DNA of 64,000 nt from an uncultured Solirubrobacterales bacterium (GCA_963701945.1 CAVPBV010000017.1:184172-248171); one strand, 5' to 3'; numbered from the stretch's first letter, positions 17,872-26,398 are shown. Translations and numbers: made by a program. Notes: generated by a model from the sequence alone, not told the origin.

Positions 17872-18852
17872 GTGCAAGATGTGACACCCATGACCGAGGC
17901 GCTGCCATTGCCCGCCGGCTTCCGGATCGGACACAGGACCGATCCCGACGGGCGCACCGGATGCACGGTCGTGATCCCGCCACCGGGGGCGCGGGGCGGC
18001 GTCGACATCCGCGGCGGCGGCACCGGAACGCGCGAAATCGAAACTCTCTCGTCGCTGGCGAATGCCGAGGGGCCGACCGCCGTGTTGCTCACCGGCGGCA
18101 GCGCGTTCGGGCTCGCGGCGGCGGACGGCGTCGTGCGGTGGCTCGAGGAACGAGGCTTCGGTCGACCGACGCCGATGGGGGTGGTGCCGCTGGTGCCGGC
18201 GGCGGTCATATACGACCTCGTGGAGGGTGTAGCGGGTCGCCGGCCTGGACCGGATGACGGCTACGCCGCGTGCGACAACGCGACCCCAGCGGTCCCGGAA
18301 CGCGGTCCGGTCGGCGCCGGCGCCGGCGCGGCCGTCGGCAAGTTGTTCGGGCGCGAGCGATCGACTCGTGGCGGAGTGGGCTACGCCGCGACCGTGCTCG
18401 CCGACGGGGCCATCGTCGCGGCGATCGCGGTCGCCAACGCGTTCGGCGACGTGATCGCCGAGGACGGCACGGTCCTCGGGGGCCCACACGACGACAGCGG
18501 CCATCCGGTCCGGACCACGGATCTGCTCCCGACCATGGTCGGGCCACCAGATCTCGCGTCCGCCTCCGCCCGCGCTGCCGGCAACACCACGCTCGCGTGC
18601 GTGTTAACGGACGTCTCACTCGACAAGCGCAGTTGCGCGATCGTTGCGCGCATGGCCAGTGCCGGGATCGCGCGCGCGGTTGACCCGGCGTTTACACCGG
18701 TCGACGGGGACGTCGTGTTCTGCATCGCCTCGGGGCCCCAGCCACCGCCCCCGCCGGGGCTGGCGGCAACTTGGGCGCTCACCTTGCTCGGGACCGTCGC
18801 GGCGACGGTCACGTCCGAGGCCATCCGGGATGCGGTTCGCGACCAGAGCTGA
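17872..18852 (+). CDS. P1/S58 (DmpA-like) peptidase
   Basis: TGCTVV, GGVDIRGGGTGTRE, LTGGSAFGL, GAGAGA, GNTTL (Ntn cleavage site) and DGDVVF. Confidence 0.85.
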   Translation: MQDVTPMTEALPLPAGFRIGHRTDPDGRTGCTVVIPPPGARGGVDIRGGGTGTREIETLSSLANAEGPTAVLLTGGSAFGLAAADGVVRWLEERGFGRPTPMGVVPLVPAAVIYDLVEGVAGRRPGPDDGYAACDNATPAVPERGPVGAGAGAAVGKLFGRERSTRGGVGYAATVLADGAIVAAIAVANAFGDVIAEDGTVLGGPHDDSGHPVRTTDLLPTMVGPPDLASASARAAGNTTLACVLTDVSLDKRSCAIVARMASAGIARAVDPAFTPVDGDVVFCIASGPQPPPPPGLAATWALTLLGTVAATVTSEAIRDAVRDQS

Positions 18853-18925
18853 TCAAGTGGGTCGAGGAATGGTTACGGCGGCGCGTTGTTGGTGGAGACG
18901 CCCGCATATCTCGCCTGACCTACGT

Positions 18926-21900
18926 CTACGAGATCCCGTACCGCTGTTTTTCCGCCGGGGTCAGCCCCCGAGTAACCCGCTGCTGCGCGATCTGCTCGAG
19001 CTGCTTGATGCTGCCGGCGAGCGCCGTCCCGAAGATTCTGATCTGCCCTCCATCCCCGCCGGCCGCGATTTGACTGCCATTGGTGGAGAACTCACAATCG
19101 GTGAGATCATCGCCGTACGGGAAGGTCGTCAGGAGCTGTCCGGTGGCGACGCTCCACACGTGAATGCTTCCCGAGCAGGTGACGATGAACTGGCCGTTGG
19201 GGCTGAAGTTGGCATTGGCCACCTGGTCGCCATTAGGTTCGGCAAGGACCTCAACTTGTCCTCCTGTGGTTGCATTCCAAACACGCGAGGTGCCGTCATC
19301 GCTGGAGGTCACTACGAGTCTGCCACCGTCGTCGGGACTGAACCAGGCGCTGGAGATCTCCGCACCGGTCGGCTCGAGCAGCACCTGGCTGAGCTTACGG
19401 GTCTGCACGTCCCAGATCTGCGCGGTTCCGTCGTCGCTCGAGGTTAGGACCTTACTGCTGTCGGGGCTGAAAACCGCCCACTCGATCGCGCTGGGAGCGC
19501 CCGAGGAGTCACTGATAAGCTTCCAGATCGGGCGGTAGGTCGTTGCGCTCGTTGCCATCCAGACGCATGCGCTGCCGTCCTCGTCGGCGGTCACGACGTA
19601 TTTTCCGTTCGGGCTGAATATCGCGTGATTGATCCCGGGGTTGTTGGAACCTGCAGGATTCGTATACGCCGGGTAGTTGTCGAGGTCCAGCGTGGCGACA
19701 GGCTTGGCCAGGTGCGCAACTGCCCAGATTCGCGCCTGCTGAGTTCCGTCGGTTGTGACTAGGAACTGCCCGTTGTGACTGAACTGCGCCGATGCGCAGT
19801 AGTCACTACCCGTGCTCCACCGAGCGAGTTGACTGCCCGTCGACGTATTCCAGAGCGAGACCGTGCCGTTGTCGGCCCCGGCGGCGAGGAGGTGTAGGTT
19901 CGTTGGGCTGAAGGCTACGCTGCAGACGTCGTCGGTCTGGTCGAGTAGAAGCTTGCGCTCGTCGATCGGCTCGGTGCTCCAGATCCTGGCGGTCCCGTCG
20001 ACGCTGGCGGTTATCAAAATCCTGCCGGCCTTGTTGATCGCGAGGGCGTTGATCGGCCCCTCGTGACCCGCCAAGGAGACGAATGGCTGGTCGCTGTCCA
20101 GGTTCCATATCCGGGCCGTGCCGTCGTCTCCTCCGGTGAGGATGAACCCTCCGCTCGGGCTGAAGGCACCGGTGGTCAGGCTGTTGTAGTCCGGCTCCTC
20201 GAGTTGATCGATGTTCGCATGGCTTGGGCTAGTGGCGTAGAACCACTCGGCATATCCCCCCGTGTCAGTGGTCATGACCCTCGTCCCACTCGGGTCGAAC
20301 GCGACGCTGGTCACCTTAGAGCCATCTTTGTTGAAGGCCGCGCCGAACTGCTTGAACGCAACGGGCTTCCGCTCTTGCTTACCGACGAAATAGATCTGGG
20401 CGTCGCCCTCATTGCCGGCGACCGCGATGAGCTTGCCGTTGGGAGAGAACGCTGCGTCCTCCAGAGACGCATCCTCCGCATCCGCGTAGCCGACCTCCGT
20501 GCTGGTGTTGATGTTGAAGACACGGGCATAGCCGTCATCGCCGGAGGTGAGAATCCAGAGCGGGTTCGCCGGATCGAACTGGACGCTCCGCAGCGGTTGA
20601 CGGCTGACGGGGATTACGCCGAGCGGGACGCCATCCGGTACACCCCAGAGCCAAACGGTGCCGGCTTGGGTCGCAGTCGCGAGCAGGCGGTTGTGGAGGC
20701 CGAAGGCAACTCCGTTGATCGCGGAATTCCCAGGAATGCTGATCACGTCGAGCGGCCTCCAGGCAACCTTCCCCGAGCGCAGGCGGAATGCTTTCCAAAC
20801 GGTTGCCGTTCCAAACTGGCTTCCGGTCACCGCCATCGTGCCGTCCGGGGTCAGCGCCACCGAGTCGAGGAGGTTCGATCCGGCGCCGGAGCGCAGCGCC
20901 GCCACCGGCTCCGTACCCGACGCGCCCCAGACGGTGACCACCCCGCTGGCGCTGGCGGTCACGATGGACTTTCCACCCGGGCCGAAGCTCGCCGACGTGA
21001 CCGTGTCGGTGCCGGCGCGCCCGAGCGAGCGAACGACCGTCTGGAGTCTGGCATCCCAAATCCGGACGACGCCGTCACCGCTGGCCGTTACGATCTGCTT
21101 GCCGTTCGGACTGAATGCAGCGCCCCAGACCGTGTATTGCCCATTCCCCACGTTCAGTGCACCGGCGGGTTTTCCCGTGGCTACGTCCCAGATCAGCGCT
21201 GTGCCGTCCAAGCCAGCGGTGATGACCTGAGTGCCGTCAGGACTGAAGCTTGCGCTGAGCAGCCCGGGCCGGGGCGATGGGGTGAGGGCCATGATCGGCT
21301 TGCCCGTCCGCGCATCCCAGATCTGGGCGGTCCCGCTCGAGCCGGCGGTGACGATCCGTGAGCTGTCGGGGCTGAACTGCGCATCCGACAGAACCTGCGG
21401 GGTTGGCTTCTGGAATAGCTGCCGAAAGGTGCGCGCATCCCAGACGCGGATATAGCCGTCGGCAGCCGTCGTCACGATCAATTGTCCGTTCGGGCTGAAC
21501 GCGGCGCTTGTGACCGCGTAGCCGCCGGATCGCGGAGCGAGGAGACCCAGAAGACTCCCGTTACGAGCATCGATGACCCTCGCCGTTCCGTCGGCGCCGG
21601 CGGTGATGATCTCCGTCCCGGCAGGATTGAGCGCCGCACCGTTGAGCGCGCCGAATCCGCCCAGGCTGGTAATCGGCCGATGGCTCGCCGCGTCCCATAT
21701 GCGGATCGTCCCGTCGGCCGACGCGGTCAGGATCCTGGTTCCGTCCGAGCTGAACATCGCGCTTCGCGCCGGGGACGGGGGAGCGAGCGTCGCCGTGACC
21801 TGGACTTGCGGCAGGGAAGCTCGCAGCGCGGCCTCGGCCTCGGGGGTATCGCGAACCTTGAGCGCCTGGAGCGACAGAAGCGTCGCCAGCTCGGGATCCT

Positions 21901-23467
21901 GGCTCAGCGCGGCTTCGGCGCTCGCCGCGAGGTGGCGGGATTGCGCCAGCTGGTTGTCGCGGTCGGCGGCTTTCTTGGCCGCATACGCCAGCACTCCCCC
22001 CACGATGCAGGCAACCAGGAGCACGCCCGCGGCGATCGCGAGGCCCTTGAACATCCGCGCGCGCCGCCGTTCCTCGGCAGCGCGGTCCTCCGCTTCGCGC
22101 TTCTCGCGCTGAAGCTGGGCCGCCCTCTCGTGTGCCTGGCGCTCGGCTTGGATCGCGGTCTGGCGCGTCCGCCAGTCGAGGATGGCCGGGGCCAGCAGAT
22201 CGTGGGAGATCTCGAACCGCGTTTTTCCGTCACCACCCGGGGCTGGCGGGACAGGACGGAGAATGCGGATATCGCCGCTCGACATTCGCTCGAGCAGCGT
22301 CTCGACTTCCTCGGGCGTGCGGCTCGTGTTGTCCCCGGCGAGGGCCACCAGGTCGACGGCAGACAGGGCGATCTTGGTTCCCGAGGGAGTCACCAGGTAA
22401 CGGAAGACATCGAGTGCGGTCTCGCGCTCGTGCGGCTCCAAGTCGCTGAGCGCGCGATCGACGTGGGTTTTGACGATCGTCTGCGCGCCACCGAGCTCGT
22501 CGAGCGTGCCCAGCCGCAGCGTTCGCGACCCGTTCTCGAGCTCGGTCTCCCAGAGCCGCTTCATGACAAGCTGGAGGTACGGCGCGGCGATCGCGTCGTT
22601 GACGCGGCCGGAGCCGTTCGCGCCGCCGACCGCACCCTTGCCCGTCTGATCTGAGCCGAACTGGTCCGGCGACAGCTGCGTCAGGACGGCATCGACCAAC
22701 GGCGAGATCGAGCCGGTGTTGCCGGGCGCCGGCTCGATCTCGACCGGCGGCTCGTCCGGGTGAAGCTCGTTGAATCGCTTGATTGGCTTCTCGATCGCCT
22801 CGCGCGCCGTCTTTCGATTGAGGTTTTCCAGGTGGAGGTAGTTTCCGTAGACGTTGTCGATCCGGCCCTGGAACAGATCGCCGAGGCGGGCGTAGGCGTC
22901 CTCACGAATCGAGATCAGGAAATTGGCCCGCAGGTCGTTGTGGTTGAGGCAGGCCGCGACCTCGTCGGCGAACCTGCCCTTGCGCGATTGGTAGAGGAAG
23001 TACTCCTCGAACTGATCGAGGATGATCAATACGGTGGCGTTCGCCGCCTCGCTGGCGGCATCTAGGACATCGACCAGATGGGCATGCTCGAGTTCGTCAA
23101 GCGCGCCACCAGGCACGAACGGGGCCACGGCCTTCCTGATCTCCTTGATCAGGTCGTCGGTGGGCTCATCCCGCCAGGAGCTGAACACCACCGGGATGGC
23201 CTCCGGCGTTCCTACCTCCATCAGGCTGTGCTCGGCAAGCTCGCTCAGGCGCGACGCCACTCCGGCGCGGAGCAGCGAGCTCTTACCCACTCCGCTCCCG
23301 GCGTAGAGCAGAGTCAGACGCGAGGCCCGCAGGTTGCTGATCAGCACCGTGCGCTCCGCCTCCCGCCCGAAGAACATCGCGGCGTCGTCGCGCGTGTAGA
23401 ACGTCAGGCCGACGTACGGACCCGCGGGAGCCTCAACCTTCTCGGCTGGTGCGGCGACGACGATCAC
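18926..23467 (-). CDS. STAND NTPase (nSTAND1-like) + TM helix + multi-WD40 propeller protein
   Basis: PYVGLTFY..FFGRE, Walker A YAGSGVGKSS, Walker B IILDQFEEYF, PYLQL..RLWE, then a coiled region and a TM helix (GLAIAAGVLLVACIVGGVLA). Many repeats of the form FSPDG..I.TA..DGTARIWD follow. Confidence 0.88.
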   Translation of the reverse strand: MIVVAAPAEKVEAPAGPYVGLTFYTRDDAAMFFGREAERTVLISNLRASRLTLLYAGSGVGKSSLLRAGVASRLSELAEHSLMEVGTPEAIPVVFSSWRDEPTDDLIKEIRKAVAPFVPGGALDELEHAHLVDVLDAASEAANATVLIILDQFEEYFLYQSRKGRFADEVAACLNHNDLRANFLISIREDAYARLGDLFQGRIDNVYGNYLHLENLNRKTAREAIEKPIKRFNELHPDEPPVEIEPAPGNTGSISPLVDAVLTQLSPDQFGSDQTGKGAVGGANGSGRVNDAIAAPYLQLVMKRLWETELENGSRTLRLGTLDELGGAQTIVKTHVDRALSDLEPHERETALDVFRYLVTPSGTKIALSAVDLVALAGDNTSRTPEEVETLLERMSSGDIRILRPVPPAPGGDGKTRFEISHDLLAPAILDWRTRQTAIQAERQAHERAAQLQREKREAEDRAAEERRRARMFKGLAIAAGVLLVACIVGGVLAYAAKKAADRDNQLAQSRHLAASAEAALSQDPELATLLSLQALKVRDTPEAEAALRASLPQVQVTATLAPPSPARSAMFSSDGTRILTASADGTIRIWDAASHRPITSLGGFGALNGAALNPAGTEIITAGADGTARVIDARNGSLLGLLAPRSGGYAVTSAAFSPNGQLIVTTAADGYIRVWDARTFRQLFQKPTPQVLSDAQFSPDSSRIVTAGSSGTAQIWDARTGKPIMALTPSPRPGLLSASFSPDGTQVITAGLDGTALIWDVATGKPAGALNVGNGQYTVWGAAFSPNGKQIVTASGDGVVRIWDARLQTVVRSLGRAGTDTVTSASFGPGGKSIVTASASGVVTVWGASGTEPVAALRSGAGSNLLDSVALTPDGTMAVTGSQFGTATVWKAFRLRSGKVAWRPLDVISIPGNSAINGVAFGLHNRLLATATQAGTVWLWGVPDGVPLGVIPVSRQPLRSVQFDPANPLWILTSGDDGYARVFNINTSTEVGYADAEDASLEDAAFSPNGKLIAVAGNEGDAQIYFVGKQERKPVAFKQFGAAFNKDGSKVTSVAFDPSGTRVMTTDTGGYAEWFYATSPSHANIDQLEEPDYNSLTTGAFSPSGGFILTGGDDGTARIWNLDSDQPFVSLAGHEGPINALAINKAGRILITASVDGTARIWSTEPIDERKLLLDQTDDVCSVAFSPTNLHLLAAGADNGTVSLWNTSTGSQLARWSTGSDYCASAQFSHNGQFLVTTDGTQQARIWAVAHLAKPVATLDLDNYPAYTNPAGSNNPGINHAIFSPNGKYVVTADEDGSACVWMATSATTYRPIWKLISDSSGAPSAIEWAVFSPDSSKVLTSSDDGTAQIWDVQTRKLSQVLLEPTGAEISSAWFSPDDGGRLVVTSSDDGTSRVWNATTGGQVEVLAEPNGDQVANANFSPNGQFIVTCSGSIHVWSVATGQLLTTFPYGDDLTDCEFSTNGSQIAAGGDGGQIRIFGTALAGSIKQLEQIAQQRVTRGLTPAEKQRYGIS

Positions 23468-25059
23468 GCGCTCGTTCCAGCGGGCAAGCGGGCGTTGAGC
23501 TCGTCGGTCAGCCGCGTCGCGTAGTCAGCTAAGCCGCCGGCGTAGAGGTCGACGTTCAAACCTGACCAGAGCTCCCGCTCGAACATATCCGGGTCCGGTT
23601 CCACCGCCCACGACTTGGCACCGAGCCGCTCTCCCCCCCAGATCCGCTTGAGAAACACCCGGAGGTTCCAATCACGCATCGTGTACCCGAGGAACAGACA
23701 GTGGCTCCGTCTGAGCTTGGCCAGGATCTGGGTGGGTACCACTGCGGTGATCGGCTTGATGCTCAGATAGTCGATGTAGTGATCCTCGGTGACCACGTAG
23801 TTCTCGTTCCACTCGTAATCCCCGCGGTTGCCGTCGACCGCGCCGTGGATCTTGACGATCAGGGTTCGCGTGAGCTTTTGGCGGTCGTCGATCGGGAGCG
23901 CTCCGTACTGGTTCGGCTGGGAGATCGGTACGGGATCGCCGTCGTAAGGGAAATGCACGAAGTGACCCTTGTCGTCACCGGTTGCCATGTACACCGCTAG
24001 GTCGTACCACTCACCCTCGGCATCGAACGCCTGCTCGAGCGCCGTGTCGAAGTTCGTGGTGACGATCATTTGGTAACGGTCCTCGTGCCCCAGCTTTCGG
24101 GCCATCTCCGGGAACTTGGCGAAGAACCGGTGCACGGCGCTCGGCTCGCGGTCGGCGGTGAGCATCTCCTCGAGCGTCTCATACAGGTCGGGCCATCCAC
24201 GGGTGACCTGCACGTACTGAGCAACGTGCGCGAGGTCGAGGTCCCCGGGGTCGATGTTGAAACGCTTGGCCAGGCCCGCGGCCAACTCCGCGGCGCCCGG
24301 CAGCGAGCCAGCGGCGTCGATCAGGCTCTCCGCCCTGCGGTGGCTCTCCATGCGCGGACCGAGGACCGGAACGAGCCTTCCCTCGTCGACCATACTCTGC
24401 AGGATCTCTCTGACGTGGGCTGAATCAGGTCGTGGCGCGATGGGGTTGGGAGTGCTCGTCGGGCGTCCAGTGGACTCCGCGGGCGCCGGCGGTGGTTCGT
24501 CAGTCGGAGGCGCCGGCGCAGTTTCAGGCTTAGCGGTCGCGGCAGCGGTGTCCCCCGGCGTAGACTCGCGTGCGATGACCTCGATTCTGTCCGCCAGGGT
24601 CGTGGCATCCGCGTCGATGTGCTCAAGGTCGACGTGCTGCATCTGAAGCTGCAACAGCAACTGGAGCGAAGGCGGGAGACTGTCCATCGGCGGCGGAGCT
24701 GCGCTGCCGATCAGCACCGGAATGACCCGCGACCGGCGCTTCAGCGCTTGCTCGATCTCCAAGCGGACGTAGTCCTGCGTCCCGTCGACGACGCGGGCCT
24801 GCTGCCGCGCCTCAATGCTCGACAGCCATCGATCGCCCATCAGCGCGAGTAACACGCCCCCCGTCGAGCTCGCCTTGATCTCCTCCTCCCACTTCACGCC
24901 GGCCGGCAAGCTCTTGAGGTCGAGAAACACGTTGTCGGTGCCGAACCTGGCCGCGAGCCGCTCGTACAGGAGCAGCGCTTCGGCCTTGGTGTCTTCATGG
25001 CGATAGTTGATGAAGACCCGGACCTGCGCCGTAGTCGCCGCCACTTCTGATTCGCCCAC
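23464..25059 (-). CDS. TIR-domain / SIR2-like (SIR2_2) fusion protein
   Basis: TIR: VFINYRHED, VFLD, VRLEIEQAL, VIPVL. A Pro/Ala linker follows. SIR2-like: IVTTNFD, IVKIHG, VTEDHY, LFLGYTMRDWN. GTG start chosen at 25059; the stop overlaps the STAND gene start by 4 bp. Confidence 0.85.
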   Translation of the reverse strand: MGESEVAATTAQVRVFINYRHEDTKAEALLLYERLAARFGTDNVFLDLKSLPAGVKWEEEIKASSTGGVLLALMGDRWLSSIEARQQARVVDGTQDYVRLEIEQALKRRSRVIPVLIGSAAPPPMDSLPPSLQLLLQLQMQHVDLEHIDADATTLADRIEVIARESTPGDTAAATAKPETAPAPPTDEPPPAPAESTGRPTSTPNPIAPRPDSAHVREILQSMVDEGRLVPVLGPRMESHRRAESLIDAAGSLPGAAELAAGLAKRFNIDPGDLDLAHVAQYVQVTRGWPDLYETLEEMLTADREPSAVHRFFAKFPEMARKLGHEDRYQMIVTTNFDTALEQAFDAEGEWYDLAVYMATGDDKGHFVHFPYDGDPVPISQPNQYGALPIDDRQKLTRTLIVKIHGAVDGNRGDYEWNENYVVTEDHYIDYLSIKPITAVVPTQILAKLRRSHCLFLGYTMRDWNLRVFLKRIWGGERLGAKSWAVEPDPDMFERELWSGLNVDLYAGGLADYATRLTDELNARLPAGTSA

Positions 25060-25277
25060 TGCGCCCTTTCCCCGCTGAGAACCGAAGGCCCTCGGCTGGC
25101 AAAGTGTTAACCACGGGACGGGTTTTGGCAAGAGGCCGGGCCGCGAGTCACATGAGATTGATGCAAAGTGGCGAGACCGTGTGTGCTAAAGCTTACGCAA
25201 AGCTTATGATCCCTGATGAAACCGTGAGTGAAAGCACGCTCACGAACGCTGACGCGCGGGTGCGTGGCGCGCTCGCC

Positions 25278-25385
25278 TCAGTGCAGGATCGAGCCGCCGT
25301 CGGCGACGAGTGTCTGTCCGGTGATCGCGCCGGCTGCATCGGAAGCGAGGAATGCGACCAGCGCGGCGAGAACACCTACGCGAGC
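25278..25385 (-). pseudogene. C-terminal remnant of a short-chain dehydrogenase/reductase
   Basis: Reads ...LAALVAFLASDAAGAITGQTLVADGGSILH*, the canonical SDR C-terminus. No SDR N-terminus lies upstream. Confidence 0.65.
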
Positions 25386-25405
25386 ACGATCCTGGCGATG
25401 TTCCC

Positions 25406-25430
25406 CTGGAGCGACCTGCAGACGCTCCAG
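25406..25430. terminator. Inverted repeat downstream of the nucleoside hydrolase gene, possible terminator
   Basis: CTGGAGCG-N9-CGCTCCAG, a perfect 8-bp stem about 40 nt past the stop. No U tract. Confidence 0.3.
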
Positions 25431-25471
25431 ACGCAGATGACGTGCGCGTCGTGATCCCGACGCGCATGCGT

Positions 25472-26398
25472 TTAGCCCAGTGAGCTGATCCGCGCGATCA
25501 GCAGTTCGCGGAACCGGTCTGAGTCGATCCCGACCGCGACGTGGCAGTTGCGCTCCCAATCGCTCAGGCCCGATCGGTCGGCGTGGGTGCGCCCGCGCGA
25601 AAGCTCGGGGCCTGTGTCGACGACCACGCCGATGTGCTCGGTGGTGAGGAGGCCGCCGTCGATCACGTGGGCCACCGCGACCGCATCGTGGACGGGCGCG
25701 CCCTCCCATCCGTAACGGCGGCGGTGGAACTGCACGTAGAACTCGAACAGATCCGCGACGAGCGTCCCCGCCTTGCCGGAGCTCCGCAGCCGCGCGACGT
25801 CGGCCGGTCGGAGCAGCGCCTGGTGCGTGACGTCGAGCCCGACCATTGTGAGGTCGATGCCGCTCGTGAACACGCGATGCGCGGCCTCGGGGTCGGCCCA
25901 GATGTTGAACTCGGCGGGAGGCGTCACATTGCCCTCGCCGATCGCGCCGCCCATCAAAACGATTCGCTCGATACGGGCGGCGATGTCCGGATAGCGCGCG
26001 AGCAGTAAAGCGATGTTCGTCAGCGGGCCGGTCGGCACGAGCGTCACCGGGCTCGCATGGCCGAGCACCGTCGTGGCGATCCAGTCGATCGCGTGCGACG
26101 GCGCCGGTTGCCGTGCGGGCGGCGGGAGATCGGGGCCGTCAAGCCCGGTCTCGCCGTGAACCTCCGCGGCGACGTGACGGTCCCGGACGAGCGGCCGATC
26201 GGCGCCGGCGGCGACCGGGATCTCCTCATAGCCGACGTGGTCGAGAACCCGGATGGCGTTCGCGGTCGTCTTCTCGAGCGTCTGATTCCCGGAGACCGTG
26301 GTGACCCCGAGCAGGTTCAGCTCGGGGCTGCCCAGTGCCAGAAGGAGCGCGATCGCGTCGTCGTGGCCGGGGTCGCAGTCGAGGATGATGTCGGTCAT
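25472..26398 (-). CDS. Nucleoside hydrolase (IUNH/Rih family)
   Basis: DCDPGHDD, VSGN, VHGETGL, TGPLTN, AEFNIWADPEA and VHD. Confidence 0.93.
   Translation of the reverse strand: MTDIILDCDPGHDDAIALLLALGSPELNLLGVTTVSGNQTLEKTTANAIRVLDHVGYEEIPVAAGADRPLVRDRHVAAEVHGETGLDGPDLPPPARQPAPSHAIDWIATTVLGHASPVTLVPTGPLTNIALLLARYPDIAARIERIVLMGGAIGEGNVTPPAEFNIWADPEAAHRVFTSGIDLTMVGLDVTHQALLRPADVARLRSSGKAGTLVADLFEFYVQFHRRRYGWEGAPVHDAVAVAHVIDGGLLTTEHIGVVVDTGPELSRGRTHADRSGLSDWERNCHVAVGIDSDRFRELLIARISSLG

What the first reader, a model, noticed from the sequence alone, without database searches (positions are those of the whole stretch)
18926..25059. Split NLR-like pair: dual-NADase TIR-SIR2 protein translationally coupled to a membrane-anchored STAND-WD40 receptor
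Seen: a TIR (Glu retained in VRLEIEQAL) plus SIR2-like (TTNFD, KIHG, FLGY) fusion overlaps by 4 bp a 1513-aa STAND NTPase. The NTPase has no N-terminal effector but has a TM helix and many WD40 repeats. The sequence looks less GC-skewed than the flanking genes (visual impression only). Known: characterised Avs/NLR-like systems fuse effector and STAND in one chain, and both TIR and SIR2 domains can deplete NAD+. Inference: here the effector is supplied in trans, carries two NADase-type domains, and the propellers may face outside the cell. That would make it a receptor for extracellular or envelope signals triggering NAD+ depletion or signalling. The SIR2 N-terminal GxG loop looks degenerate (VLGPRM), so that domain may be a scaffold or sensor.
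Basis: partly seen in the sequence, partly recalled or inferred. Interest (0 to 1): 0.78.

Follow-up and report, generated by a model that had tools for sequence, protein, structure and literature searches.

The report
Membrane-spanning NLR-like sensor with TIR-SIR2 partner
Two overlapping genes in a soil actinobacterium encode a cytoplasmic protein with two NAD-cleaving-type domains (TIR and SIR2) and an NLR-like ATPase that crosses the membrane once and probably holds three fast-evolving WD40 propellers outside the cell; the pair is strictly conserved but unstudied, and may be an immune-type receptor that senses from outside the cytoplasm.

Summary
On the minus strand, gene 1 (23464-25059, 531 aa) is a TIR_2 + SIR2_2 fusion. 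Its TGA overlaps (GTGA) the GTG start of gene 2 (18926-23467, 1513 aa). Gene 2 encodes an nSTAND1 NTPase, a roughly 100-residue helix containing one TM segment (residues 475-497), and about 21 WD40 blades.

The pairing is not chance. All 29 loci found through the SIR2 gene have an nSTAND1 gene directly downstream. Four of four loci found through the STAND gene have a TIR-SIR2 gene directly upstream. No third gene is conserved. All 121 STAND homologues checked have one strongly hydrophobic segment at the same position, with an Arg-rich N-flank. This predicts NTPase inside and sensor outside.

Against a syntenic relative, the TIR-SIR2 protein and NTPase region are 97-98% identical, but the WD40 region is only 66-90% identical. 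The TIR Glu (aligned to SARM1 E642) and the SIR2 His/Asn are kept, while the SIR2 GAG loop is degenerate. In other clades the SIR2 partner is catalytically dead and fused to TIR, HTH or SARP domains, so SIR2 is probably the constant docking module.

Flanking genes show no clear defence-island context, and function is untested. Verdict: a new variant of nSTAND1/NLR-like conflict systems.

The parts
23464..25059 (-). Gene 1: TIR-SIR2 protein, 531 aa, GTG start
   Evidence: ORF and translation. RBS GGGAAAGGG upstream of GTG 25059. Pfam TIR_2 + SIR2_2. At least 746 full-length homologues, with the best 120 listed at 49% identity or higher (apart from one 309-aa fragment). dN/dS 0.16-0.27 against relative L043.
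24550..25023 (-). TIR domain (residues ~13-170); catalytic Glu E101 at 24757-24759
   Evidence: Pfam TIR_2. The profile aligns to the SARM1/TIR-1 TIR domain, with E101 on the SARM1 'KDWVHKEI' Glu. Foldseek TM 0.7-0.8 to the SARM1 TIR. E101 is invariant in A1.
24442..24558 (-). Pro/Ala/Thr-rich low-complexity linker (residues 168-206)
   Evidence: Sequence. Variable in length and sequence in A1. AF2 pLDDT below 50 for residues 167-204.
23467..24417 (-). SIR2-like domain (residues ~215-531). Degenerate G-loop LGPRM at 24349-24363, Asn N336 at 24052-24054, His H405 at 23845-23847.
   Evidence: Pfam SIR2_2. Closest solved relatives are KomC, ThsA, DSR2 and SIR2-HerA. His is kept in 118/120 close homologues and Asn in 92. 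Active-site comparison with distant partners.
23464..23467 (-). GTGA overlap: stop of gene 1 / start of gene 2 (translational coupling)
   Evidence: Sequence. The same 4-bp overlap or a 3-nt gap occurs in L039-L043.
18926..23467 (-). Gene 2: nSTAND1 NTPase - TM - WD40 protein, 1513 aa
   Evidence: ORF and Pfam. It is the only true nSTAND1 gene in the genome. 4779 homologues of the N-terminal 530 residues at E <= 1e-10.
22085..23419 (-). nSTAND1 NTPase module (residues 17-461). Walker A GSGVGKSS at 23276-23299; Walker B LIILDQFEE at 23003-23029.
   Evidence: Pfam PF20703, 149 bits. G59, G61, K62, S63, S64, D151, Q152 and E154 are invariant in A2. AF2 pLDDT 82. The fold matches ORC/Cdc6, CED-4, NRC, Apaf-1 and SAMD9.
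21908..22201 (-). One continuous predicted helix, residues 423-520 (cytoplasmic coiled-coil-like part, TM, outer stalk)
   Evidence: AF2 secondary structure H423-520.
21977..22045 (-). Single transmembrane segment, residues 475-497, preceded by RRRARMFK (22046-22069)
   Evidence: KD19 2.70. 121/121 homologues have such a segment (mean KD 2.72, length 19-27). The N-flank has 6.1 K+R per 15 residues against 2.4 in the C-flank.
18929..21754 (-). Predicted extracytoplasmic sensor: about 21 WD40 blades (probably three 7-bladed propellers) plus a C-terminal tail
   Evidence: Pfam WD40 and beta-propeller families. Repeat positions. Homologue lengths are trimodal, at about 800-1050, 1100-1250 and 1450-1550 aa. 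Hypervariable against L043: 66-90% identity, dN 0.14-0.18.
25060..25277 (-). Upstream non-coding region of the pair (lower G+C; presumed promoter, not identified)
   Evidence: Sequence. The consensus promoter scan gave nothing above chance. The region is retained in L043.

Best explanation
This is a self-contained, translationally coupled two-gene NLR-like conflict (immune-type) module.

Gene 2 encodes a single-pass type-II membrane protein. Its nSTAND1 NTPase switch is cytoplasmic. A long helix carries it through the membrane. Three hypervariable WD40 propellers lie on the extracytoplasmic face, where they would act as the ligand (non-self or envelope-event) sensor.

Gene 1 encodes the cytoplasmic output protein. 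Its SIR2-like domain is the constant partner of this NTPase clade and most likely docks the protein onto the NTPase. Its SARM1-like TIR domain, and possibly the SIR2 domain itself, cleave NAD+ once clustered.

Proposed sequence of events:
1. Ligand binds the outer propellers.
2. The cytoplasmic NTPase modules oligomerise under the membrane in an NTP-dependent way.
3. This forces TIR-SIR2 into higher-order assemblies.
4. NADase activity depletes NAD+ or makes ADPR-type products.
5. Growth arrest or cell death follows.

Shown here: the architecture, intact motifs, strict gene pairing, TM conservation, charge bias, sensor hypervariability, purifying selection and patchy distribution. Inferred: topology, physical docking, NADase activity, the ligand and the immune role.
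For: - Domains and motifs.
- Folds: TIR resembles the SARM1 TIR; SIR2 resembles KomC, ThsA, DSR2 and SIR2-HerA, all defence NADases that act as oligomers or filaments. The NTPase resembles ORC/Cdc6, CED-4, NRC, Apaf-1 and SAMD9.
- Pairing: 29/29 loci found from the SIR2 side have nSTAND1 directly downstream. 4/4 loci picked from the STAND side have TIR_2-SIR2_2 directly upstream, with a 4-bp overlap or a 3-nt gap. No third conserved gene.
- SIR2 as the constant partner: it is always present, while the extra domain varies: N-terminal TIR, C-terminal TIR in cyanobacteria, XRE-type HTH, SARP/BTAD, or none. L012 (TIR-SIR2) and L020 (HTH-SIR2) sit beside NTPases that are 79% identical.
- TM: present in 121/121 homologues, with net charge +3.8 on the N-flank against +1.0 on the C-flank. 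AF2 predicts one continuous helix, 423-520.
- Sensor: 1, 2 or 3 propellers, Kelch repeats, or an unknown domain. Against the syntenic relative, NTPase dN is 0.011 and WD40 dN is 0.14-0.18. The sensor is always the least conserved part.
- Accessory distribution: about 5-6 of 151 family genomes, 0 of 3 same-genus genomes, and 3 of 300 phylum genomes. G+C is lower than the flanks. Some loci lie next to integrases or a transposase.
Against: - No experiment exists for any member. I found no paper describing this pair.
- Flanking genes of 27 loci are mostly metabolic. Only about 7 of 96 hit PADLOC models, so there is no clear defence-island signal.
- The module was not found in phage records or in any true plasmid record.
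- The SIR2 GAG loop is degenerate (G-P-R) in this clade, so one of the 'two NADases' may be inactive.
- HTH and SARP variants of gene 1 with dead SIR2 domains show that part of the family outputs to transcription rather than NAD+ destruction. The family is therefore not uniformly suicidal.
- The raised dS (0.34-0.44) in the WD40 region suggests recombination or mosaicism rather than pure positive selection; dN/dS is 0.41, not above 1.
- The AF2 model of the SIR2 part has only moderate confidence.
- No interaction surface could be modelled because no multimer tool was available.
Confidence: 0.55

Rival explanations
1. A non-immune transmembrane signalling device. The outer propellers read a physiological or developmental cue (cell wall, neighbour cells, a nutrient polymer). 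The NTPase then switches a cytoplasmic output that adjusts NAD+ metabolism or makes a nucleotide signal, without killing the cell.
For: Close relatives replace the TIR with DNA-binding HTH or SARP/BTAD domains and carry dead SIR2 domains. That looks like a receptor-to-transcription pathway. Flanks are mostly housekeeping or metabolic, with little PADLOC signal. In the window the pair sits among nucleoside-metabolism genes. Actinobacterial receptor kinases such as PknD have the same layout of a cytoplasmic domain, a TM segment and an outer beta-propeller (own knowledge).
Against: Distribution is patchy and accessory-like, and the gene is single-copy. G+C is lower than the flanks. The sensor is hypervariable and modular, as in immune receptors. 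The SARM1-like TIR and defence-type SIR2 keep their catalytic residues. The genomic context differs from locus to locus.
Confidence: 0.2
2. Thoeris-like wiring in cis. On activation the TIR domain makes a cyclic-ADPR-type signal that switches on the neighbouring SIR2 NADase of the same protein, so the two domains act in series rather than redundantly.
For: TIR and SIR2 are the two enzyme types of type I Thoeris. There are weak PADLOC and NCBIfam hits to ThsA, ThsB and ThcB4. TIR-SIR2 fusion arose in both domain orders, which argues for functional coupling.
Against: The protein has no SLOG, Macro or other known signal-binding domain; TIR, linker and SIR2 account for the whole sequence. The ThsA/ThsB-type hits are far below family thresholds (24.4 bits against a cut-off of 220). 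Many relatives have a TIR with a dead SIR2, so SIR2 catalysis is dispensable when a TIR is present.
Confidence: 0.1
3. The hydrophobic segment only tethers the protein to the membrane, or is not inserted at all, and the WD40 propellers sense a cytoplasmic ligand as in Apaf-1 or Avs proteins.
For: All characterised STAND/NLR sensors are cytosolic. The WD40 repeats are of the ordinary FSPDG...IWD type seen in cytosolic STAND proteins. There is no experimental topology.
Against: Nearly all homologues (118 of 121) have exactly one segment with KD19 above 1.8, 19-27 residues long, at a fixed position between the NTPase and the sensor. The sequence varies while hydrophobicity is conserved. A strong Arg cluster lies on the NTPase side. 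A single span cannot leave both ends on the same side of the membrane.
Confidence: 0.08
4. A decaying or non-functional horizontally acquired remnant.
For: Lower G+C than the flanks. There is an adjacent 2.2-kb deletion relative to L043. Some relatives are frameshifted (L015, L019, L022, L029).
Against: Both ORFs are intact, with dN/dS of 0.14-0.27 for the TIR, SIR2 and NTPase parts against a syntenic relative. All catalytic and Walker motifs are retained.
Confidence: 0.03

Closest known systems
nSTAND1-centred conflict systems (Kaur, Iyer, Burroughs, Aravind, eLife 2021, PMC8195603; Pfam PF20703)
   Same: The same NTPase clade (149 bits against a cut-off of 27.1). NAD+-targeting effector domains (TIR, SIR2) and repeat sensors occur as modules. 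Effectors may be separately encoded. Found mainly in actinobacteria and cyanobacteria.
   Different: In those descriptions, separate effectors are coupled through paired adaptor domains (EADs, Death-like, TRADD-N). Here neither protein has a recognisable adaptor and the NTPase starts at residue 17. In the texts I read I found no mention of a fixed SIR2 partner or of a TM helix between the NTPase and the sensor.
Avs / AVAST antiviral STAND proteins (including SIR2-STAND Avs5 and TIR-STAND forms) and bNACHT proteins
   Same: A STAND switch plus an NADase-type effector plus a repeat sensor. The expected logic is ligand-induced oligomerisation that activates the effector.
   Different: Those are single cytosolic polypeptides with N-terminal effectors and mostly TPR-like sensors for phage proteins. 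Here the effector is a separate, translationally coupled gene, the sensor lies beyond a TM helix, and there is no PADLOC Avs or bNACHT hit.
SIR2 NADases that work as separate subunits of defence complexes: SIR2-HerA, Kongming KomBC, short pAgo SPARSA, and also ThsA and DSR2
   Same: SIR2_2-type fold with a catalytic His (the alignment to KomC places H405 on its catalytic His). SIR2 is supplied in trans to a sensor or NTPase partner and is activated in oligomers or filaments.
   Different: The partner here is a membrane STAND, not HerA, KomB or Argonaute. The GAG loop is degenerate. An extra TIR is fused to the protein.
SARM1 and plant TIR-NLR resistosomes (RPP1, ROQ1)
   Same: The TIR is most similar to the SARM1 TIR and keeps the catalytic Glu. 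In TNLs, STAND oligomerisation creates the TIR NADase.
   Different: The TIR is not on the STAND chain and the receptor is membrane-spanning. No ARM/SAM or LRR domains.
Toll-like receptors, and actinobacterial receptor kinases with an outer beta-propeller (PknD)
   Same: The layout of an outer repeat or propeller sensor, a single TM segment and cytoplasmic signalling, with a TIR as output in TLRs.
   Different: The cytoplasmic part is a STAND NTPase, not a TIR or kinase. This is analogy only, with no homology of the receptor chain.

Membership tests
STAND NTPase, nSTAND1 clade (PF20703) | Profile match above the curated threshold | tested here: met
   149.4 bits against a cut-off of 27.1, residues 17-461. 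It is the only such gene in the genome.
STAND NTPase, nSTAND1 clade (PF20703) | Intact Walker A (GxxxxGK[ST]) and Walker B (hhhhD[DEQ]) | tested here: met
   GSGVGKSS at 57-64 and LIILDQFEE at 147-155. G59, G61, K62, S63, S64, D151, Q152 and E154 are invariant in 28 sequences.
STAND NTPase, nSTAND1 clade (PF20703) | P-loop core followed by helical and winged-helix modules (NOD-like fold) | tested here: met
   AF2 pLDDT 82. Foldseek hits to ORC/Cdc6, CED-4, NRC, Apaf-1 and SAMD9 at E 1e-9 to 1e-5.
STAND NTPase, nSTAND1 clade (PF20703) | NTP-dependent oligomerisation | not testable with these tools
   Needs biochemistry or cryo-EM.
TIR NADase (SARM1-like / bacterial TIR_2) | TIR fold and profile match | tested here: met
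   TIR_2 at 44.7 bits against a cut-off of 28. TM 0.7-0.8 to the SARM1 TIR.
TIR NADase (SARM1-like / bacterial TIR_2) | Catalytic glutamate | tested here: met
   E101 aligns with the Glu of SARM1 'DWVHKEI', is invariant in A1, and is Glu in 96 of the 97 close homologues where the motif could be located.
TIR NADase (SARM1-like / bacterial TIR_2) | NAD+ cleavage activity | not testable with these tools
   Needs an enzyme assay.
Defence-type SIR2 NADase (SIR2_2: ThsA, DSR2, KomC, SIR2-HerA) | SIR2_2 profile and fold | tested here: met
   63.8 bits against a cut-off of 24.5. Foldseek hits to KomC, ThsA, DSR2 and SIR2-HerA at E 1e-6 to 1e-4, from a model of moderate confidence.
Defence-type SIR2 NADase (SIR2_2: ThsA, DSR2, KomC, SIR2-HerA) | Catalytic His and Asn | tested here: met
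   H405 (KIHG) aligns with the KomC catalytic His. His is kept in 118/120 close homologues. N336 (TTNFD) is present here and in 92 of the 111 close homologues where the motif could be located.
Defence-type SIR2 NADase (SIR2_2: ThsA, DSR2, KomC, SIR2-HerA) | Gly-rich NAD-binding loop (GAGxS) | tested here: not met
   The window has L-G-P-R-M. The clade has LG[SP]R. Distant SIR2-only partners keep FLGAG.
Thoeris | A separate TIR (ThsB) plus an effector with a signal-binding domain (SLOG, Macro and others) | tested here: not met
   No SLOG, Macro or other sensor domain. The ThcB4 hit is 24 bits against a cut-off of 220. PADLOC ThsA/ThsB hits are local and weak.
Avs / bNACHT single-chain NLR-like defence proteins | Effector, STAND and sensor in one cytosolic polypeptide; match to Avs or bNACHT models | tested here: not met
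   The effector is a separate gene. A TM helix lies between the NTPase and the sensor. No PADLOC Avs or NACHT hit.
Anti-phage defence system (generic) | Enrichment next to known defence genes or mobile elements | tested here: inconclusive
   About 7 of 96 flanking ORFs hit PADLOC models, and there are 2 integrases. One locus has an integrase plus a transposase, and one has a DUF4062-STAND neighbour. No background rate was computed, and PADLOC covers actinobacterial MAGs poorly.
Anti-phage defence system (generic) | Protection against phage | not testable with these tools
   Needs phage challenge in a laboratory host.

The most novel reading that the evidence does not exclude
A bacterial transmembrane pattern-recognition receptor of the NLR type. 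The STAND switch stays in the cytoplasm, but its hypervariable propeller sensor surveys the cell surface. There it could detect phage adsorption or tail proteins, competitor toxins or wall damage, before or without genome entry. It then fires a separately encoded TIR-SIR2 NADase that docks through its SIR2-like domain. This would be an 'outside-in' abortive response that combines TLR-like topology with NLR-like switching.
Probability: 0.35. Interest if true: 0.85.

Novelty: new variant of a known kind. Interest (0 to 1): 0.62.

Why it matters
Every characterised bacterial STAND/NLR-like immune protein senses its ligand in the cytoplasm and carries its effector on the same chain. This module breaks both rules in a strictly conserved way. 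The sensor lies beyond a membrane helix, and the effector is a separate protein whose SIR2-like domain is the invariant partner, even when it is catalytically dead.

If the predicted topology holds, three things follow:
- Bacteria would have surface-surveying NLR-type receptors. That makes testable the open question of whether bacterial immunity can detect phages or competitors before genome entry.
- It would be a natural system for studying how a STAND switch is driven across a membrane.
- The swappable outputs (TIR, HTH, SARP, or SIR2 alone) and swappable sensors (1-3 WD40 propellers, Kelch, unknown) suggest a general receptor platform.

The family is large, with thousands of metagenomic homologues, but seems to be unnamed and unstudied.

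Tried and rejected
- Empty-site test: the two flanking genes (IU nucleoside hydrolase, peptidase S58) were not found at E <= 1e-30 in the three same-genus genomes, so no empty site could be shown.
- Consensus promoter and terminator scan of 18600-25600: nothing above chance.
- Tandem Repeats Finder on the WD40 region: no DNA-level repeats, so the blades are diverged from one another and there is no sign of recent concerted evolution.
- Conserved third gene: none. The most frequent neighbour family occurs in 5 of about 30 loci.
- Phage and plasmid collections: no phage hit, and one weak hit in a 'plasmid' record that is really an 11.8-Mb Nonomuraea replicon.
- Sequence search of the NTPase profile against PDB: only P-loop-level hits. 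The fold search was needed.
- Literature searches for the specific pair ('TIR-SIR2' + STAND; nSTAND1; EACC1; bacterial NLR + transmembrane + SIR2/TIR/WD40) found no description.
- A first phylum-level genome search failed and was repeated with n=300.
- Thoeris, Avs and bNACHT membership were considered and rejected (see Membership tests).
- Amyloid (BASS-like) or EAD-type coupling: by eye, the C-terminus of gene 1 and the N-terminus of gene 2 share no motif, and no adaptor domain is detected. This was not tested further.

Full report
**What is there.** The window is about 70% G+C. Relatives place it in the Solirubrobacterales (Actinomycetota). On the minus strand there are two ORFs: 23464-25131 and 18926-23467.

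The first is best started at GTG 25059. GGGAAAGGG lies five nt upstream, and the 97%-identical protein on record is also 531 aa. Its TGA overlaps the GTG of the second ORF as GTGA.

Pfam results:
- Gene 1: TIR_2 (44.7 bits) and SIR2_2 (63.8 bits).
- Gene 2: nSTAND1 (149 bits, residues 17-461) and many WD40/beta-propeller families.

PADLOC and NCBIfam give only weak, sub-threshold hits to ThsA-, ThsB- and ThcB4-type models, and no Avs or NACHT hit.

The flanking genes are housekeeping. On one side are peptidase S58, an HD-domain protein and a phosphopentomutase-like enzyme. On the other are IU nucleoside hydrolase, Fpg/Nei, a helicase and RecC. The pair has lower G+C (62-68%) and lower GC3 (0.82 against 0.85-0.92) than its neighbours. 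GC skew itself is not distinctive.

**The effector protein.**
- TIR domain. A profile of 25 homologues aligns the TIR to the SARM1 and TIR-1 TIR domains, with invariant E101 on the SARM1 catalytic Glu in 'DWVHKEI'. That this residue is E642 is my own knowledge.
- SIR2 domain. The profile aligns it to KomC, with H405 on the KomC catalytic His (the PDB entry name 'KomC(H146N)' identifies it).
- Structure. The AF2 model has mean pLDDT 61.5, good for the TIR and moderate for SIR2. It matches the SARM1 TIR (TM 0.7-0.8) and KomC, ThsA, DSR2 and SIR2-HerA.
- Conservation. Among 120 close homologues, His is kept in 118. Asn of TTNFD is kept in 92, with Ser in 16. The TIR Glu is kept in 96 of the 97 where the motif could be matched.
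- G-loop. The Gly-rich loop is LG[SP]R rather than GAG.

**The pair is a unit.** A scan of one genome per species found 29 loci encoding a relative of gene 1. Most are Solirubrobacterales, with some other Actinomycetota, two cyanobacteria and one acidobacterium. In all 29, an nSTAND1 gene follows directly.

Starting from the STAND side, 4779 proteins match residues 1-530 at E <= 1e-10. I picked four whose contigs did not obviously match a gene-1 hit. These included a Kelch-sensor form and a form with an unrecognised C-terminal domain. All four have a TIR_2-SIR2_2 gene directly upstream, with a 4-bp overlap or a 3-nt gap. No third gene is conserved. The window's genome has only this one true nSTAND1 gene.

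**The SIR2-like domain is the constant partner; the rest of gene 1 is swappable.** Architectures seen:

| Locus | Gene 1 architecture |
|---|---|
| L021, L022 | SIR2 alone |
| L020 | XRE-type HTH + SIR2 |
| L023 | Trans_reg_C + BTAD (SARP) + SIR2 |
| L027, L028 (cyanobacteria) | SIR2 + C-terminal TIR (reversed order) |

An alignment of the SIR2 parts shows how the active site varies:
- Only the SIR2-alone proteins keep the full GAG + Asn + His set.
- The HTH, SARP and several TIR fusions have lost His (to Asn, Tyr or Leu) and Asn (to Lys, Ser or Cys).
- The window's clade keeps Asn and His but not the second Gly.

L012 (TIR-SIR2) and L020 (HTH-SIR2) sit next to NTPases that are 79% identical. 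The output domain has therefore been exchanged between close relatives.

My reading is that the SIR2-like domain docks onto this NTPase clade whatever its catalytic state. In this window, however, the catalytic residues are under purifying selection, with dN/dS of 0.16 for SIR2 and 0.27 for the TIR.

**The membrane helix and topology.** Residues 475-497 (GLAIAAGVLLVACIVGGVLAYAA) have a 19-residue Kyte-Doolittle mean of 2.70 and follow RRRARMFK.

In 121 of 121 homologues there is such a segment at the same place:
- Mean position is 458, mean KD is 2.72, and length is 19-27 residues.
- It is conserved in hydrophobicity but not in sequence.
- 118 of the 121 have no second segment.
- The N-flank has 6.1 K+R per 15 residues against 2.4 in the C-flank. 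Net charge is +3.8 against +1.0.

The same feature is present in the genome loci, including the cyanobacterial ones. AF2 (pLDDT 82) models residues 423-520 as one continuous helix.

The positive-inside rule (established knowledge) applies, the protein has no signal peptide, and an NTPase needs ATP. Together these give a type-II topology, with the NTPase in the cytoplasm and the roughly 1000-residue sensor outside. This is a prediction, not a measurement. The cytoplasmic part folds like ORC/Cdc6, CED-4, NRC, Apaf-1 and SAMD9, with invariant Walker A and B residues.

**The sensor.** About 21 blades can be counted. Homologue lengths are trimodal, at about 800-1050, 1100-1250 and 1450-1550 aa. This fits one, two or three seven-bladed propellers. 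Kelch and unknown C-terminal domains also occur.

A syntenic close relative (L043, about 92% nucleotide identity in the flanks) gives this comparison:

| Region | Amino-acid identity | dN | dS | dN/dS |
|---|---|---|---|---|
| TIR-SIR2 | 97% | 0.013 (TIR and SIR2 parts) | 0.05-0.08 (TIR and SIR2 parts) | 0.16-0.27 |
| NTPase | 98% | 0.011 | 0.08 | 0.14 |
| WD40 region | 66-90% | 0.14-0.18 | 0.34-0.44 | 0.41 |
| Flanking genes | - | - | 0.14-0.33 | - |

The sensor therefore evolves at least ten times faster than the switch, probably with recombination. The effector and NTPase part is even more alike than the flanks, which suggests a recent exchange of that part. Across other locus pairs the sensor is always the least conserved part; for example, L004 against L005 is 77% in the NTPase and 29% in the sensor. 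The blades are not similar to one another at the DNA level.

**Distribution and context.** SIR2-part matches occur in about 5-6 of 151 genomes of the same family, in 0 of 3 same-genus genomes, and in 3 of 300 other genomes across the phylum. The distribution is patchy, as for accessory genes.

Some loci sit beside an integrase and a transposase, a PDDEXK protein, Lsr2, or a DUF4062-AAA_16-TPR gene. A survey of 96 flanking ORFs from 27 loci is less suggestive. Only about 7 hit PADLOC models (DpdF, mad3, mad8, DrmD, AriA and two cyclases), two are integrases, and most are metabolic genes. The module is absent from the phage collection and effectively absent from the plasmid collection. An immune role is therefore suggested by the parts and their evolution, not by genomic context.

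**Comparison with what is known.** The NTPase clade was named by Kaur et al. (eLife 2021, PMC8195603). They list TIR and SIR2 among effectors and describe separate effectors joined to STAND proteins by paired adaptor domains. Kaur et al. 2020 (PMC7159879) discuss TM segments in other conflict systems. Kibby et al. mention bacterial NACHT proteins with TM C-terminal regions. Dore et al. predict periplasmic sensors for some DGR-diversified STAND targets. Recent STAND and TIR surveys (PMC12803255; bioRxiv 10.64898/2025.12.03.692087) do not describe this pair in the passages I read.

I found no paper on a (TIR-)SIR2 partner plus nSTAND1-TM-propeller pair. I therefore file it as a new variant of a known kind. 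Membership of Thoeris, Avs and bNACHT fails on defining features (see the table).

Notes from earlier agents of this scan describe what appears to be the same module in at least six other genomes, usually with a dead SIR2. These are unchecked leads. They agree with my independent result and with the dead-SIR2 clades I saw. This window's clade differs in keeping His and Asn.

**Mechanism proposed (inferred).** Ligand binding to the outer propellers clusters or releases the receptor. The cytoplasmic NTPase modules oligomerise with NTP. The bound TIR-SIR2 proteins are forced together. TIR, and perhaps SIR2, then becomes an active NADase, and NAD+ falls. TIR domains, ThsA and KomC are all known to need oligomers or filaments; the entry titles describe helical assemblies.

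Rivals are given with odds: a non-lethal signalling device (0.2), Thoeris-like cis signalling (0.1), a cytoplasmic sensor with a mere tether (0.08), and decay (0.03).

**Limits.** There is no experimental topology and no background rate for defence-gene neighbours. The SIR2 model is of only moderate confidence.

Noticed in passing
window 25278-25367 (minus strand) and L043:7524-9689: Just upstream of the pair the window keeps only the last ~25-30 codons of a short-chain dehydrogenase (...FLASDAAGAITGQTLVADGGSILH*). The syntenic relative L043 has a fuller SDR gene (224 aa as called) plus a 467-aa gene of unknown function here. The window therefore carries a ~2.2-kb deletion (or L043 an insertion) next to the module, and the site is variable.
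   Followed up: partly
L020:7776-9005 and L023:6942-8993 (with L012 for comparison): The partner gene of the membrane STAND can be XRE-type HTH + dead SIR2, or SARP (Trans_reg_C + BTAD) + dead SIR2, instead of TIR-SIR2. L012 (TIR) and L020 (HTH) have NTPases that are 79% identical. Part of the family may signal to transcription.
   Followed up: partly
L027:5337-6560 and L028:6999-8567 (cyanobacterial MAGs): The domain order is reversed: SIR2 (His replaced by Tyr) followed by a C-terminal TIR, still directly upstream of an nSTAND1 gene with a hydrophobic segment. TIR was therefore joined to this SIR2 independently, or the order was permuted.
   Followed up: partly
L021:8879-10348: A short 489-aa nSTAND1 partner of a fully canonical SIR2-only gene. 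It ends after two hydrophobic segments and has no repeat sensor. A WD40 gene lies on the opposite strand about 4 kb away.
   Followed up: no
window 23467-25059 and 22040-23467, compared with the flanks: Synonymous divergence from L043 is lower in the TIR-SIR2 and NTPase parts (dS 0.05-0.09) than in the flanking housekeeping genes (0.14-0.33), but higher in the WD40 part (0.34-0.44). This is a mosaic history within one operon.
   Followed up: partly
L001:2951-4828, L005, L013, L016, L024 (flanks): A protein with TrkA_N and RyR domains recurs next to the pair in 5 of 27 loci, on either side and on either strand. Its meaning is unknown.
   Followed up: no
own genome G000:C12:240670-241149 (outside the window): A second, separate TIR-domain ORF (about 198 aa open frame) matches the TIR part of the profile at E 6e-30.
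   Followed up: no
L040:10145-11567: One relative's locus lies about 2.5 kb from a DUF4062-AAA_16-TPR gene. DUF4062 was recently reported as a TIR-like NADase family (bioRxiv 10.64898/2026.05.01.722283, title and abstract only).
   Followed up: no
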